6,799 nt of DNA from a virus. Taxonomy: Duplodnaviria; Heunggongvirae; Uroviricota; Caudoviricetes. Each line of letters begins with the position of its first letter. Position 1 is the stretch's first letter. The notes under the pieces were generated by a model that saw only the letters and a list, made by a program, of their open reading frames with translations, had not been told where the DNA came from and made no database searches. Of this stretch, positions 1 to 4,028 are shown piece after piece. A program made the position numbers and the translations under genes. The stretch lies in the IMG/VR virus record IMGVR_UViG_2547132252_000010, positions 1 through 6,799 of that record. The stretch is one strand, 5' to 3'.

Positions 1-34
1 CCCGGGTTTCCTGGAGAGTGTTTTATCTGTGAAC

Positions 35-924
35 TCAGGCTGCCAGATCATCGTTTCCGATGGAAGCATAATAAGCTTTTTCTGCTTCTGCCGGAGGAGT
101 ATGGCCCAGCCTTCCCAGCAATCGTCGATTGTTATACCAGTCCACCCACGTTAGTGTGGCCAGTTCCACTTCTGCACGGTTTTTCCAGCTCTTACGGTGT
201 ATTACCTCCGCTTTGTAAAGACCATTGATGCTCTCAGCCATCGCGTTGTCATACGAGTCGCCTGTACTCCCTGTTGATGCCAGTAATCCGGCTTCTTTTA
301 GTCGCTCCGTATAGGCCAGTGACACATACTGAGAGCCTTTATCGCTGTGATGGATGGTGCCAGACGGACGACGGGCCCACAACGCCTGCTCCAGCGCATC
401 CAGCACGAATGTCGTTTCCATAGACGATGAGACCCGCCACCCCACGATGTATCCGGCAAACACATCAATGATAAACGCCACATAGACGAAGCCCTGCCAT
501 GTGCTGACGTAAGTAAAATCAGCCACCCACAGCTGGTCAGGTCGTTCTGCCACGAACTGACGGTTTACGCGGTCGCCTGCGGCAACGGCTTTCCGGCTGA
601 TGGTCGTACGGACCTTTTTACCCCGGAGAACACCGGCAAGTCCCATAACCGCCATGAGACGTGCCACTGTACATCTGGCCACCTGATTCCTTCCCGTAAC
701 AACTGACGCCAGACTTTACGCACACCGTACACCTGATGATTTTCATCGTATACGCGCTGTATCTCTCTCTTCAGCCAGTCGTCGTGCTGCGCACGGGCAC
801 TGCGTTTATCCGGATGATGTCGCTGTTGCTGACAATGGTAATACGTTGACGGGGCAATATGCAGTTCGCTGCATACCGGTCCGACCCCGTACTGCTCACG
901 CAGCTTATCCAGCAGTGGCATCAT
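35..924 (-). pseudogene. IS3-family transposase OrfB (DDE integrase core), frame-disrupted: N-terminal part 565..924 and C-terminal DDE part 35..682 are in different frames
   Basis: IS3-family OrfB is normally one ORF of about 290-300 aa. Here the N-terminal segment ([16 protein letters not shown]...RQLLREGIR) and the DDE catalytic segment (VARCTVARLMAV...WVADFTY...HHSDKGSQY...ESINGLYKAEV...) sit in different frames and overlap across 565-682. The switch maps to about 682-683, where the minus strand reads atc agg tgg cc; one extra G (atc agg gtg gcc) would give the continuous REGIRVARCTV reading. Confidence 0.65.
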
Positions 925-1247
925 TTTTTCCAGAGGCGGTCGAACTCCGCCTTCGCAAAATAAGCGGAAGCCTGGCGAAGGATATCGTTACTGCGGCGCA
1001 GTTCACGATTTTCACGTTCCAGCTCTTTCAGACGCTGACGTTCAGCGCTGGTGAGCCCACCATCACCGCCCCCGGTATCCCGCTCATGCTGGCGAACCCA
1101 GACACGCAGAGTCTCCGGCGTACAGCCAATCTTTGGGGCAATGGAACAAATTGCCGCCCACTGTGAGTCATATTCATCCTGACTTTCCAGAACCATACGA
1201 ATCGCCCGCTGACGGACTTCGGGGGAAAAACGAGTATTTTTAGTCAT
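921..1247 (-). CDS. IS3-family transposase OrfA (HTH DNA-binding subunit), 108 aa
   Basis: [33 protein letters not shown]...[36 protein letters not shown] with an HTH followed by a leucine-zipper-like segment. Its stop overlaps the start of the orfB frame at a T6 run (plus-strand 924-929, A6 on the coding strand), the usual IS3-family -1 frameshift window. Confidence 0.9.
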
Positions 1248-1339
1248 CCTGTTTACCTCTTTCTCAGGGAGTTTAGTCTCCAGGATTTCCGGGGCGGTTC
1301 ACACCAAGTCTGGCCGCGAATTTCTTAGCATCACCAACC

Positions 1340-1467
1340 CTTAATGATTTAATAAACTCTTTTAATGTCATACCTTCCTCGGTTTAGTGTTTTTTGCGAG
1401 TTTAGTGTTTAATAAACCATTAAGTCAAGTATTTGCTTGTTTAGTGATTACTAAAGATAATTACCAC
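1340..1467 (+). promoter_or_regulatory. Candidate promoter-operator region of the TA operon: five direct repeats of TTTA(G/A)TG(A/T) with about 20-bp spacing, plus a sigma70-like -35/-10 pair placing the transcript start at or next to the ATG (leaderless)
   Basis: Repeat copies start near 1340, 1361, 1383, 1401 and 1440; longer forms are TTAATGATTTAATAAACT (1341-1358) and TTTAGTGTTTAATAAACC (1401-1418). TTGCTT at 1433-1438, a 17-bp spacer and GATAAT at 1456-1461 fit a promoter, and there is no Shine-Dalgarno before the ATG at 1468. Promoter and operator roles are inferred. Confidence 0.4.
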
Positions 1468-1838
1468 ATGCAAAAAAAGAAATTCGCCGTTTACGTCTCA
1501 AGGAGTGGTTTAAAGATAAAACTCTGCCACCCAAAGAGAAGAGCTACCTATCTCAACTAATGAGTGGGAGAGCCTCGTTTGGAGAAAAGGCTGCCAGAAG
1601 AATAGAGCAAACATACGGGATGCCGGAAGGGTATCTGGATGCGGAATACGCAGAACAACCGGGGGGTTCTCCACCACATGCAGGGTTAACGTCTAATCAA
1701 CTGGAATTATTGCAGATTTTTTCAGCCTTCCCTGAGGATGAGCAACGCCAGATAATCAGCGAGTTAAAGCAGAAAAAAGAATCAATGGAAGATCTCATAG
1801 CGAGATGGATTGCGGCGCAAAAATGCCGCCGCGCCTGA
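1468..1838 (+). CDS. paaR2: HTH transcriptional regulator of the TA operon (PaaR-like), reading frame offset at an A7 tract; the longest clean ORF is 1560..1838 (92 aa), but the HTH-encoding codons extend upstream to 1461 with no in-frame start
   Basis: Frame 0 from 1461 encodes LPHAKKEIRRLRLKEWFKDKTLPPKEKSYLSQLMSGRASFGEKAARRIEQTYGMPEGYLD..., a Cro/CI-type HTH, but has no ATG, GTG or TTG before M at 1560. The only upstream ATG (1468, atgcaaaaaaag) is in the +1 frame and stops after 30 codons at 1558-1560. One extra A in the A7 run 1472-1478 would give a continuous protein MQKKEIRRLRLKEWF... of about 123 aa. The symbol is by synteny with the recognised antitoxin and toxin genes. Confidence 0.55.
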
Positions 1839-1858: not shown

Positions 1859-2050
1859 ATGAATAGAGCCCTTTCACCAATGGTTTCTGAATTTGAAACC
1901 ATTGAACAAGAAAACAGTTACAACGAATGGCTGCGTGCGAAAGTAGCAACGAGCCTTGCAGATCCGCGCCCAGCAATTCCCCATGACGAAGTTGAGCGCA
2001 GAATGGCAGAACGCTTTGCTAAGATGCGCAAGGAACGGAGCAAGCAGTAA
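1859..2050 (+). CDS. paaA2: Small antitoxin of a ParE-type three-component TA system (PaaA2-like), 63 aa
   Basis: ATG at 1859 preceded by GGAGGA (1850-1855). The product MNRALSPMVSEFETIEQENSYNEWLRAKVATSLADPRPAIPHDEVERRMAERFAKMRKERSKQ is small, charged and helical, and matches my recollection of PaaA2. Its stop (2048-2050) lies 1 nt before the toxin ATG. Confidence 0.75.
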   Translation: MNRALSPMVSEFETIEQENSYNEWLRAKVATSLADPRPAIPHDEVERRMAERFAKMRKERSKQ

Positions 2051-2051
2051 A

Positions 2052-2330
2052 ATGTTACCCGTGTTATGGCTTGAAAGCGCAGATACCGACCTAGATGATA
2101 TAACTAGTTATATTGCTCGTTTCGACATAGATGCGGCTGAACGCTTATGGCAGCGATTAAGGGGTTGTGTGCTGCCGTTATCCGAACATCCGTATTTATA
2201 CCCACCAAGCGACAGAGTACCTGGCTTGCGTGAGATTGTAGCCCACCCTAACTATATAATTCTATACCGCGTAACAACATCAAGCGTTGAAGTAGTAAAC
2301 GTGATCCACGCAAGACGCCAGTTTCCCTAA
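2052..2330 (+). CDS. parE2: ParE/RelE-superfamily toxin (ParE2-like), 92 aa
   Basis: MLPVLWLESADTDLDDITSYIARFDIDAAERLWQRLRGCVLPLSEHPYLYPPSDRVPGLREIVAHPNYIILYRVTTSSVEVVNVIHARRQFP has the ParE-family pattern (D-x-x-I-x-x-YIA, RE-[IL]-V, YIILYRV). The start at 2052 is tightly coupled to the antitoxin stop; the in-frame ATG at 1956 would overlap paaA2 by 95 nt and is rejected. Confidence 0.85.
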   Translation: MLPVLWLESADTDLDDITSYIARFDIDAAERLWQRLRGCVLPLSEHPYLYPPSDRVPGLREIVAHPNYIILYRVTTSSVEVVNVIHARRQFP

Positions 2331-2400: not shown

Positions 2401-2441
2401 GGTTTAGTTTTTACTTGGCTTAAGTTTAATGTTTATTAAAC
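2401..2441. repeat. Paralogous second copy of the operator-like block found upstream of the regulator
   Basis: GGTTTAGTTTTTACTTGGCTTAAGTTTAATGTTTATTAAAC (2401-2441) aligns with GGTTTAGTGTTTTTTGCGAGTTTAGTGTTTAATAAAC (1381-1417), sharing the GGTTTAGT head and the TTTA(A/G)TGTTTA(A/T)TAAAC core. Confidence 0.45.
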
Positions 2442-2680
2442 TAAAAATACCAACCACCCCGCCCCACAGAACGCAGGGAAATACTTCGAGTTACCCGGCA
2501 GTGGTCAGGGGTTAAGTAGCCAGCCCGAGGCGTATGAACATGACGGCAGGGTTCAACTTTAATAACTATGCAGCAGTTTTTTGTTCCGCTACCCCGGCGT
2601 TAAGGGGAAACAGAGGGTTTCTCAGTGGGCGAAGTCAAACATCAGAATGGAAGGCATCCCGGGATCGGCAAAGAAGCAGC

Positions 2681-3271: not shown

Positions 3272-3627
3272 TAGCTAACCAACGAAGCTAAGGTTGGTAA
3301 TTAAGGAGTTCTCCACGGGTGAGGTGGAGTGCGTGCGCCGGACACGGGTGAGCATACGGCACTGACAGTTTACTGAAAGGATATTTCCCTGAAAAGTCAG
3401 ACCATAACGCGAAAGCGCACGGCGAGGTAGCTGGTTCATAGATAGCCTGTCGTTAAATTTTCGTCGACCGTGCGCTTCCGGTTGTGGCAATCCGCGAAAT
3501 GGCGCGGCGGTAAGTATGGAGGGGTTATTCCTTCCCCCGTTGAGGACACCGGGTTGTCAGGTTGACCATACGCTTAAGTGACAACCCCGCTGCAACGCCC
3601 TCTGTTATCAATTTTCTGGTGACGTTT

Positions 3628-3670
3628 GGCGGTATCAGTTTTACTCCGTGACTGCTCTGCCGCCCTTTTT
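3628..3670 (+). terminator. Candidate intrinsic terminator: GC-rich 7-bp basal stem (GGCGGUA/UGCCGCC) plus apical 4-bp stem, followed by CUUUUUAAA
   Basis: GGCGGTA (3628-3634) pairs with TGCCGCC (3658-3664), and CAGT (3636-3639) with ACTG (3651-3654); a T5 run follows at 3666-3670. It lies about 400 nt after the stop of the 72-aa gene and just before the 19-bp inverted repeat. Confidence 0.35.
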
Positions 3671-3839: not shown

Positions 3840-4028
3840 ATGGAAACGTTATTACCAAACGTTAATACGTCTGAAGGTTGTTTTGAAATTGGTGTCACTA
3901 TCAGTAACCCTGTATTTACTGAAGATGCCATTAACAAGAGAAAACACGAACGGGAGCTATTAAATAAAATATGCATTCTTTCAATGCTGGCCCGTTTACG
4001 TCCGATACAAAAAGGATGCTGGCAATGA
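3840..4028 (+). CDS. Hypothetical small protein, 62 aa
   Basis: ATG at 3840 is preceded by GAGGA (3828-3832) with a 7-nt spacer. The product is METLLPNVNTSEGCFEIGVTISNPVFTEDAINKRKHERELLNKICILSMLARLRPIQKGCWQ. Its TGA stop (4026-4028) overlaps the next ATG (4025-4027) as ATGA, implying translational coupling. The longer track ORF from 3735 has no ribosome-binding site and would run through the inverted-repeat arm. Confidence 0.45.
   Translation: METLLPNVNTSEGCFEIGVTISNPVFTEDAINKRKHERELLNKICILSMLARLRPIQKGCWQ

What the first reader, a model, noticed from the sequence alone, without database searches (positions are those of the whole stretch)
1340..1467. Array of about 20-bp-spaced TTTA(G/A)TG direct repeats over a probable leaderless promoter
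Five copies of the motif at roughly two-helical-turn spacing fill the 166 bp between the IS end and the regulator ATG, overlapping a -35/-10 pair (TTGCTT at 1433-1438, GATAAT at 1456-1461). That pair places the transcript start at the ATG itself, which fits the absence of any Shine-Dalgarno, as with lambda cI transcribed from PRM. Co-operative binding of an HTH repressor to iterated half-sites is the natural reading.
Basis: inference. Interest (0 to 1): 0.5.

Follow-up and report, generated by a model that had tools for sequence, protein, structure and literature searches.

The report
Known prophage repressor operator, leaderless promoter

Summary
The repeats are real. There are four exact TTTA(G/A)TG copies (1361, 1383, 1401, 1440) and one near copy (CTTAATG, 1340). 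The TTGCTT/17 nt/GATAAT promoter ends 6 nt before the ATG at 1468, and there is no Shine-Dalgarno sequence.

The window is the immunity region of the lambdoid cryptic prophage CP-933P/Sp12 of E. coli O157:H7. The regulator is PaaR2, the CI analogue, followed by the paaA2-parE2 toxin-antitoxin pair.

- 5' RACE and N-terminal sequencing showed a leaderless paaR2 mRNA.
- EMSA and DNase I footprints showed that PaaR2 and YdaS bind this 97-bp region.
- They described four equally spaced 18-bp dyads with half-site GTTTAGTAA.

Their primers map exactly onto the window.

- 1302-1371 is not spacer. It is the 5' stub of the divergent cro-like gene ydaS, cut by IS629, so two of the five copies are coding sequence.
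- The sites are better read as dyads.
- A second promoter (PR) runs leftwards, and a matching OL/PL cluster lies at 2402-2448.
- paaR2 in this window carries a 1-nt homopolymer deletion, probably a sequencing error.

One addition is new. The dyad/-35/dyad/-10/6-nt/ATG layout is conserved in PaaR2 homologues from many genera.

The parts
1..1301 (-). IS629/IS1203 (IS3 family), cut by the window start; its end abuts ydaS codon 24
   Evidence: RefSeq annotation of identical junctions in O157:H7 genomes. The IS3-type frameshift pseudoknot ALIL is at 850-966. orfB is split by a missing C at 681-683.
1302..1371 (-). 5' remnant of ydaS (Cro analogue): start codon at 1371-1369 and 23 codons, then the IS
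   Evidence: Translation MTLKEFIKSLRVGDAKKFAARLG. The published primer F-YdaS-EcoRI matches 1346-1371. Full-length YdaS from ATCC 25922 hits Pfam YdaS_toxin and HTH_3.
1340..1367 (+).
   Evidence: The 18-mer at 1340-1357 matches the operator consensus 12/18. It lies under the published footprint primer (1330-1354), so it was never resolved. Its status as a binding site is unknown.
1372..1467 (.). ydaS-paaR2 intergenic region: the OR-type operator/promoter region of CP-933P
   Evidence: It equals the published EMSA fragment FL1/FL2. The published length is 97 bp. It is 31% G+C.
1382..1399 (.). IR4, GTTTAGTGTTTTTTGCGA: only the left half (window orientation) fits the consensus; lineage-specific
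   Evidence: No counterpart in homologues from other genera. The paper says IR2 and IR4 are conserved on one half only.
1400..1417 (.). IR3, GTTTAGTGTTTAATAAAC: 18-bp dyad over the PR -10 and spacer
   Evidence: 15/18 to the published consensus, second best in the window. Conserved at -67/-68 in 21 homologues.
1399..1428 (-). PR933P candidate: -35 TTGACT (1428-1423), 18-nt spacer, -10 TAAACT (1404-1399), reading into ydaS
   Evidence: Consensus scan. GTCAAG and AGTTTA are at least 90% conserved in homologues. The ydaS transcript start was mapped by 5' RACE in the paper. The paper's exact hexamers could not be read.
1419..1436 (.). IR2, ATTAAGTCAAGTATTTGC: degenerate site between the two -35 boxes
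   Evidence: Its position follows from the 19-20-bp spacing. This is an inferred mapping of the paper's IR2.
1433..1461 (+). PRM933P: -35 TTGCTT (1433-1438), 17-nt spacer, -10 GATAAT (1456-1461)
   Evidence: TTTGCTT and NANAAT are conserved in homologues. The published PRM reporter fragment is 1395-1468.
1439..1456 (.). IR1, GTTTAGTGATTACTAAAG: best dyad; it fills the PRM spacer
   Evidence: 16/18 to the consensus, best in the window, with 14/18 self-complementary positions. Conserved at -29 in homologues.
1468..1838 (+). paaR2 (CI analogue, 123 aa in reference alleles); transcript start = A of the ATG; frameshifted here by A7 instead of A8 at 1472-1478
   Evidence: The published primer carries A8. 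Residues 1-71 match PDB 7nkv/8c3k 'Phage repressor protein CI' at E = 1e-40.
1859..2050 (+). paaA2 antitoxin
   Evidence: Pfam PaaA2, E = 1e-19.
2052..2330 (+). parE2 toxin
   Evidence: Pfam ParE_toxin, E = 2e-16.
2402..2448 (+). OL/PL933P cluster: GTTTAGTTTTTACTTGGC (2402) and GTTTAATGTTTATTAAAC (2424), with TAAACT at 2437-2442
   Evidence: Third and fourth best matches to the operator consensus in the window. Repeat families D1/D2. The published PL reporter fragment is 2331-2448 and is repressed about 100-fold by PaaR2 or YdaS.

Best explanation
The region is the right-operator region (OR type) of the immunity switch of the lambdoid cryptic prophage CP-933P/Sp12. Two back-to-back sigma-70 promoters sit in a 97-bp gap.

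PRM933P points right and starts transcription on the A of the paaR2 ATG. The repressor PaaR2, and the paaA2-parE2 toxin-antitoxin genes behind it, are therefore expressed from a leaderless mRNA. PR933P points left into ydaS (Cro analogue) and ydaT (CII analogue).

Four 18-bp sites about 19-20 bp apart, with half-site GTTTAGT(A/G)A, overlap both promoters. IR1 fills the PRM spacer. IR3 covers the PR -10 and spacer. PaaR2 and YdaS compete for these sites. Low PaaR2 represses PR and stimulates PRM, and YdaS preferentially shuts PRM, which gives a bistable switch. A matching OL/PL cluster lies downstream of parE2.

What is shown: the sequence features (here), and the transcript start, binding, footprints and reporter effects (published). 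What is inferred: which half-sites each protein contacts, and cooperativity or looping.

In this window the switch is broken on the Cro side, because IS629 interrupts ydaS.
For: Identity of the locus:
- 99.9% identity to O157:H7 chromosomes, in the cro-O-P / cI-TA-dicB-exo-xis-int context.
- Published primers for the EMSA, footprint, PRM and PL fragments match the window exactly.

Published experiments on this sequence (PMC8630535):
- 5' RACE places the transcript start at the translation start, and the protein's N-terminus is MQKKE.
- PaaR2 protects about 78 bp and YdaS about 65 bp.
- Four equally spaced 18-bp inverted repeats are described.
- OL1-3 and PL are regulated by both proteins.

Own scans:
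- The four best matches in the window to the dyad consensus are 1439, 1400, 2424 and 2402.
- The repeats are far above chance.

Comparative evidence:
- In 22 sequences compared (E. coli plus 21 homologues of 43-76% protein identity), the two dyads sit at -29 and -66 to -68. The -10 ends 6 nt before the ATG in 20 of 22, and none has an SD.
- The regulatory block is 77% identical on average, against 30% for the 6-nt gap between -10 and ATG.
- A ydaS homologue is divergently placed in nearly all of these loci.
Against: - Nothing in the sequence contradicts this explanation.
- The authors themselves say the precise contacts of PaaR2 and YdaS are undetermined.
- The hexamers they boxed could not be read, because the figure and Table S1 are not held. 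My PR hexamers therefore rest on a consensus scan plus conservation.
- In this window paaR2 is frameshifted. If that is real, no PaaR2 would be made here.
Confidence: 0.95

Rival explanations
1. The sites work as same-orientation half-site iterons. HTH monomers or dimers polymerise head-to-tail along five or six direct repeats every two helical turns, reaching into the ydaS coding region.
For: - In E. coli the well-conserved halves of IR4, IR3, IR2 and IR1 all point the same way, about 19-20 bp apart.
- The paper notes a 'striking balance' between direct and inverted repeats and leaves both open.
- Two further look-alikes continue the period at 1340 and 1361.
Against: - IR1 and IR3 are clear dyads, with 14/18 and 12/18 self-complementary positions.
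- In 21 homologues the top strand carries 0-1 TTTARTG copies, against 3 in E. coli. At IR3 the good half-site is on the other side: the Yersinia/Erwinia IR3 is the exact reverse complement of the E. coli one. The dyad positions are nevertheless fixed.
- The copies at 1340 and 1361 are codons of ydaS, and the TTTAA core at 1361 follows from the conserved Leu-Lys codons of Cro-like N-termini.
Confidence: 0.15
2. The repeats are operators for classical type II toxin-antitoxin autoregulation, bound by the PaaA2-ParE2 complex.
For: The operon carries a ParE toxin and its antitoxin directly downstream.
Against: - PaaA2 matches only the short Pfam PaaA2 'stability determinant' model and no DNA-binding family.
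- The paper states that PaaA2 has no detectable DNA-binding motif, and that regulation is by PaaR2, YdaS and YdaT.
- The promoter/operator block is conserved in homologous loci that have no paaA2-parE2 within 1.5 kb.
Confidence: 0.02
3. The repeats are plasmid-type iterons or a partition centromere, or a chance product of A+T-rich DNA next to an IS.
For: The region is A+T-rich (31% G+C) and lies next to a stability module and an IS.
Against: - The locus is chromosomal and prophage-borne: 639 of 640 places are on chromosomes. The only plasmid-database hit is a 1.4-Mb record.
- No rep or par genes are present.
- Local shuffles never reproduce the repeat counts.
- The repeats are present in hundreds of genomes without the IS.
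Confidence: 0.01

Closest known systems
CP-933P / Sp12 immunity region: PRM933P-PR933P operators bound by PaaR2 and YdaS (Jurenas et al. 2021, mBio, PMC8630535)
   Same: It is the same sequence. Primers for the EMSA, footprint and reporter fragments match exactly. It shows the same 97-bp gap, leaderless paaR2, four 18-bp repeats, and OL/PL downstream of parE2.
   Different: This copy has IS629 in ydaS codon 24, which is rare (about 11 of 5426 genomes). It also has three 1-nt homopolymer deletions, including one in paaR2.
Bacteriophage lambda OR / PRM / PR with cI and cro
   Same: - Divergent repressor and cro genes either side of a short operator region.
- Leaderless repressor mRNA.
- Dyad operators overlapping both promoters.
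- A distal OL.
- An accessory gene pair behind the repressor (rexAB in lambda, paaA2-parE2 here).
   Basis: established knowledge.
   Different: - There are four sites about 19-20 bp apart rather than three 17-bp sites.
- PaaR2 is 123 aa with no S24 peptidase domain (no Pfam hit at all) and is reported to be unresponsive to mitomycin C.
- There is no sequence similarity to lambda operators.
Rac (RacR/YdaS/YdaT) and Qin (DicA/DicC) cryptic prophage switches of E. coli K-12
   Same: The gene order is the same. YdaS and YdaT family proteins are present (Pfam). dicB and DicF lie downstream in this window.
   Different: The repressor family is different. CP-933P YdaT is reported not to bind between ydaS and paaR2, unlike in Rac. 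No YdaT box occurs in the window.
Plasmid iterons
   Same: Short repeats at a regular spacing of about two helical turns.
   Different: The repeats here are dyads in a prophage promoter region. There is no Rep gene or origin. The orientation is not conserved across homologues.

Membership tests
CP-933P PaaR2/YdaS operator region (PRM933P/PR933P) | Sequence identity with the experimentally characterised EDL933 fragment | tested here: met
   Published primers FL1, FL2, Footprint1/2, F/R-PRM and F/R-PL match exactly at 1372-1391, 1446-1467, 1330-1354, 1494-1516, 1395-1415, 1443-1468, 2331-2351 and 2427-2448. The only differences are T6 versus T7 and A7 versus A8.
CP-933P PaaR2/YdaS operator region (PRM933P/PR933P) | Binding of PaaR2 and YdaS to the fragment; transcript start at the ATG | not testable with these tools
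   Taken from PMC8630535: EMSA, DNase I footprints, 5' RACE and N-terminal sequencing.
Lambdoid immunity region (OR-type genetic switch) | Divergent repressor and cro-like genes across a gap of about 100 bp or less, inside a lambdoid prophage gene order | tested here: met
   The ydaS stub (1371-1302, - strand) faces paaR2 (1468, + strand). Intact relatives show ydaS-ydaT-O-P on one side and dicB-exo-xis-int on the other.
Lambdoid immunity region (OR-type genetic switch) | Several dyad-symmetric operators overlapping both promoters, plus a second cluster (OL) beyond the repressor operon | tested here: met
   Dyads at 1439 and 1400 with half-conserved sites at 1419 and 1382. OL copies at 2402 and 2424.
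Lambdoid immunity region (OR-type genetic switch) | Leaderless repressor mRNA (-10 about 6-7 nt before the ATG, no SD) | tested here: met
   GATAAT ends 6 nt before the ATG and there is no SD. Twenty of the 22 sequences compared keep the 6-nt distance.
Lambda CI / LexA-type repressors (HTH + S24 peptidase) | C-terminal S24 autocleavage domain | tested here: not met
   PaaR2 is 123 aa with no Pfam family at E <= 0.01. The paper states that it lacks the peptidase motif. PaaR2 works like CI but is not a member of that protein family.
Plasmid iteron arrays | Same-orientation repeats next to a rep gene or origin, with conserved orientation | tested here: not met
   The context is a chromosomal prophage. 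The orientation is not conserved in homologues.
Type II TA operator bound by the antitoxin | Antitoxin with a DNA-binding domain that autoregulates the promoter | tested here: not met
   PaaA2 matches only the 33-position Pfam PaaA2 model. The literature says it has no DNA-binding motif.

The most novel reading that the evidence does not exclude
The most novel reading not excluded concerns the whole repressor family rather than this one locus. PaaR2-type repressors may form a single, very widely spread immunity group. In it a fixed cassette (dyad, back-to-back -35 boxes, dyad inside the PRM spacer, -10, 6 nt, ATG) has been kept almost unchanged from Enterobacterales to Burkholderiales, while the proteins diverged to 43-76% identity. 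That would make leaderless repressor expression an obligatory, selected part of the switch.

Two smaller points go with it. A further site inside ydaS (1340-1357) may extend the array. The A8 run at codons 2-4 of paaR2 may be a genuine slippage-prone off-switch rather than only a source of sequencing error.
Probability: 0.3. Interest if true: 0.35.

Novelty: already known. Interest (0 to 1): 0.15.

Why it matters
For the scan this is a correct call on a feature that is already characterised experimentally. It shows that leaderless promoters and operator arrays can be read from raw sequence.

Biologically, the region controls a toxin-antitoxin pair and, through PL, the division inhibitors DicB and DicF in a pathogen's prophage.

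The additions made here are modest. The leaderless promoter/operator cassette is conserved across many genera. Across those genera the dyads are conserved, not the direct repeats. In a small set of O157:H7 strains the Cro-side of the switch is destroyed by IS629, which should lock the switch in the repressor-on state.

Tried and rejected
- **Plasmid origin.** I suspected it at first because of the IS, the TA pair and the A+T-rich repeats. The plasmid database gave one hit, a 1.4-Mb record. 639 of 640 E. coli places are chromosomal.
- **Pfam on PaaR2.** No family was found. The HTH assignment rests on the PDB match to 7nkv/8c3k/8c3l, 'Phage repressor protein CI', and on the paper.
- **Papers for the PDB entries.** No paper describing 7NKV/8C3K/8C3L is in the held library.
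- **Table S1 and Figures 1B/2E-G of PMC8630535.** These are not held as text, so the authors' exact hexamers and IR/OR boundaries could not be read. The IR2 and IR4 coordinates are my mapping.
- **YdaT box.** TTGATT-N6-AATCAA does not occur in the window even with 2 mismatches. This is consistent with its published location at the ydaS 3' end, which lies beyond the IS.
- **Real paaR2 pseudogene.** I judged this unlikely. All three indels against the nearest genome are one-base losses in homopolymers, one of them inside the IS transposase. I could not exclude it, because A7 recurs in 4 of 54 other loci.

Full report
**What is in the window**

The window holds the following features:
- Bases 1-1301 are an IS3-family element, with its transposase on the - strand.
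- After a 166-nt stretch comes an ATG at 1468.
- Two small genes follow at 1859-2050 and 2052-2330.
- Then come small ORFs, a DicF RNA (3614-3665), dicB, and an 823-aa exonuclease gene.

DNA searches place 1302-2460 on the chromosome of 633 of 5426 complete E. coli genomes. Most are O157:H7 and other STEC, and 557 match at 99% identity or more. It also occurs in Escherichia phage Evi.

In intact copies the neighbours are a 100-aa YdaS-family regulator and YdaT, read divergently, followed by O/P-like replication genes. On the other side lie dicB, exonuclease, excisionase and integrase. This is the immunity region of a lambdoid prophage. Pfam identifies the two small genes as PaaA2 and a ParE toxin, and the divergent genes as YdaS and YdaT. 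The locus is therefore paaR2-paaA2-parE2 of the cryptic prophage CP-933P/Sp12.

**The observation**

- **Motif copies.** TTTARTG is found at 1361, 1383, 1401 and 1440 on the + strand.
- **Longer form.** GTTTAGTG occurs exactly three times in 6.8 kb, all within 1382-1446.
- **Chance.** No local shuffle out of 20,000 reached these counts.

Two corrections apply. First, 1302-1371 is not spacer. Its reverse strand encodes MTLKEFIKSLRVGDAKKFAARLG, the first 23 codons of ydaS, which IS629/IS1203 has cut. The copies at 1340 and 1361 therefore lie in coding sequence, and the real intergenic region is 1372-1467. Second, the spacing is 21, 22, 18 and 39 nt, and the long gap holds a degenerate copy at 1419.

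**What is already published**

Jurenas et al. 2021 (mBio, PMC8630535) studied exactly this DNA from strain EDL933. Their oligonucleotides match the window exactly:
- EMSA fragment: 1372-1467.
- Footprint fragment: 1330-1516.
- PRM reporter fragment: 1395-1468.
- PL reporter fragment: 2331-2448.

They report the following:
- **Leaderless start.** 5' RACE places the PRM933P start at the paaR2 translation start. The purified protein begins MQKKE and has the expected mass, so the mRNA is leaderless 'like cI'.
- **Binding.** PaaR2 and YdaS each give several EMSA complexes on the 97-bp region. PaaR2 protects about 78 bp. YdaS protects 65 bp in two blocks.
- **Repeats.** There are four equally spaced 18-bp inverted repeats (consensus half GTTTAGTAA), with IR1 over PRM and IR3 over PR. 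IR2 and IR4 are conserved on one half only. Three 'pseudosymmetrical' operators are also described.
- **Regulation.** Low PaaR2 stimulates PRM and represses PR. YdaS represses PRM more strongly.
- **Distal promoter.** PL933P, with OL1-3 downstream of parE2, is repressed about 100-fold by either protein.
- **Oligomeric state.** PaaR2 octamerises.

They also state that the precise contacts remain undetermined, and that both direct and inverted repeats might be used.

**Mapping onto the window**

I scored every 18-mer against the palindrome GTTTAGTAATTACTAAAC. The four best in the window are 1439 (16/18), 1400 (15/18), 2424 (14/18) and 2402 (13/18).

- IR1 (1439-1456) exactly fills the spacer between TTGCTT and GATAAT. 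An occupant there must exclude RNA polymerase from PRM.
- IR3 (1400-1417) covers a leftward promoter, TTGACT-18 nt-TAAACT (1428 down to 1399), that reads into ydaS.
- IR4 start to IR1 end spans 75 bp here and 76 bp with T7. This fits the roughly 78-bp PaaR2 footprint (inference).

**Comparative evidence (new here)**

Back-translated searches with PaaR2 returned homologues of 43-76% protein identity. The genera are Yersinia, Erwinia, Raoultella, Enterobacter, Morganella, Arsenophonus, Photorhabdus, Xenorhabdus, Winslowiella and Acerihabitans, plus the betaproteobacteria Massilia, Mycoavidus and Glomeribacter. Nearly all have a ydaS homologue read divergently about 92-105 nt upstream.

Their upstream regions align into one cassette: AGTTTA-N-ACTAAAC, GTCAAG, TTTGCTT, GTTTAG..ATTACTAA, NANAAT, about 6 variable nt, then ATG. 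Across the 22 sequences compared (E. coli plus 21 homologues), the findings are as follows:
- The -10 ends 6 nt before the ATG in 20 (one has 5 nt, one has 7).
- None has an SD-like tetramer in -18..-4.
- The dyads sit at -28 to -30 and at -66 to -68.

The cassette is on average 77% identical to the E. coli one. The comparison values are 69% for the HTH-coding DNA, 56% further upstream, and 30% for the 6 nt between the -10 and the ATG.

The direct-repeat pattern is not conserved. Homologues have 0-1 top-strand TTTARTG copies and often one on the bottom strand. The Yersinia/Erwinia IR3 (GTTTATTAAACACTAAAC) is the exact reverse complement of the E. coli IR3. IR4 has no counterpart outside the E. 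coli lineage. This favours symmetric binding to 18-bp dyads over head-to-tail iterons. It also makes the leaderless design a family trait.

The toxin-antitoxin pair is present only in the closest relatives. This agrees with the authors' idea that it was inserted into a pre-existing switch.

**State of this particular copy**

- **IS insertion.** The IS629-ydaS junction is present in only about 11 complete genomes. The IS has the same orientation as PR933P, so PR should read into the transposase genes (inference).
- **Indels.** Against the nearest genome (E32511) the window shows 1 mismatch and 3 gaps in 5393 nt. Each gap is one base missing from a homopolymer: the C-run at 681-683 (splits IS orfB), T6 for T7 at 1389-1394, and A7 for A8 at 1472-1478.
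- **Effect on paaR2.** The A7 allele frameshifts paaR2 after codon 4 (MQKKKFAVY..., stop after 30 codons). The published primer carries A8.
- **Likely cause.** The pattern points to sequencing error. However, A7 recurs in 4 of 54 other near-identical loci.

**Verdict**

It is already known in experimental detail.

- the ydaS stub;
- the divergent PR promoter;
- the dyad nature of the sites;
- the competing Cro analogue YdaS;
- the OL/PL twin at 2402-2448;
- the frameshift in paaR2.

PaaR2 works like lambda CI but is not a member of the CI/LexA protein family, because it has no S24 domain. Interest is low for novelty. The family-wide conservation of the cassette is a small new point.

Noticed in passing
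window 1472-1478, 1389-1394 and 681-683: The window differs from the nearest O157:H7 genome by three single-base losses, all in homopolymers: A7 for A8 (frameshifts paaR2 after codon 4), T6 for T7 (inside operator IR4), and C2 for C3 (splits IS629 orfB). Sequencing error is likely, but A7 also occurs in 4 of 54 other near-identical loci (L076, L077, L081, L082).
   Followed up: partly
window 1-1371: IS629/IS1203 is inserted in codon 24 of ydaS (the Cro analogue), in the same orientation as promoter PR933P. PR should therefore read into the transposase genes, and the Cro arm of the switch is destroyed. The junction is found in only about 11 of 5426 complete E. coli genomes.
   Followed up: partly
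window 2402-2448 (and inverted repeat 2349-2395): A second operator cluster with two consensus-like 18-mers and a TAAACT -10 lies just after parE2. It corresponds to the published PL933P/OL1-3. A 22-nt-arm inverted repeat sits between the parE2 stop codon and this cluster.
   Followed up: partly
loci L007, L013-L015, L017, L019-L029, L031, L083-L094, L099: -70 to +3 relative to the repressor ATG: PaaR2 homologues of 43-76% identity from many genera, including betaproteobacteria, keep an almost fixed cassette: dyad, two -35 boxes, dyad, -10, 6 nt, ATG. No SD is present. The non-coding block is more conserved than the HTH-coding DNA.
   Followed up: yes
window 1400-1417 versus L019/L021/L022/L025/L028 at -67: The E. 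coli IR3 (GTTTAGTGTTTAATAAAC) is the exact 18/18 reverse complement of the IR3 of the Yersinia, Erwinia and Acerihabitans homologues, including the asymmetric centre. It looks as if the operator had been flipped in place.
   Followed up: partly
L005, L008-L012, L018 (Xenorhabdus, Photorhabdus): In this subgroup the same promoter/operator block lies about 60 nt further upstream of the repressor ATG. These repressors would have a leader, although no obvious SD is seen.
   Followed up: no
window 1340-1357: CTTAATGATTTAATAAAC, inside ydaS coding sequence, matches the operator consensus 12/18. It shares an exact 10-mer (TTTAATAAAC) with IR3 and lies 60 bp from it. It sits under the published footprint primer, so its occupancy was never tested.
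   Followed up: partly
L083, L091, L094 versus the other homologue loci: paaA2-parE2 follows the repressor only in the closest relatives (71-74% PaaR2 identity), and there with about 450 nt between them. More distant loci have no such pair within 1.5 kb. This fits a late insertion of the toxin-antitoxin pair into the switch.
   Followed up: partly
window 3614-3665 (+) and 3840-4028 (+): A DicF antisense RNA (Rfam, 76.7 bits) and dicB lie downstream of PL933P. Loss of repression at PL would be expected to inhibit cell division.
   Followed up: no
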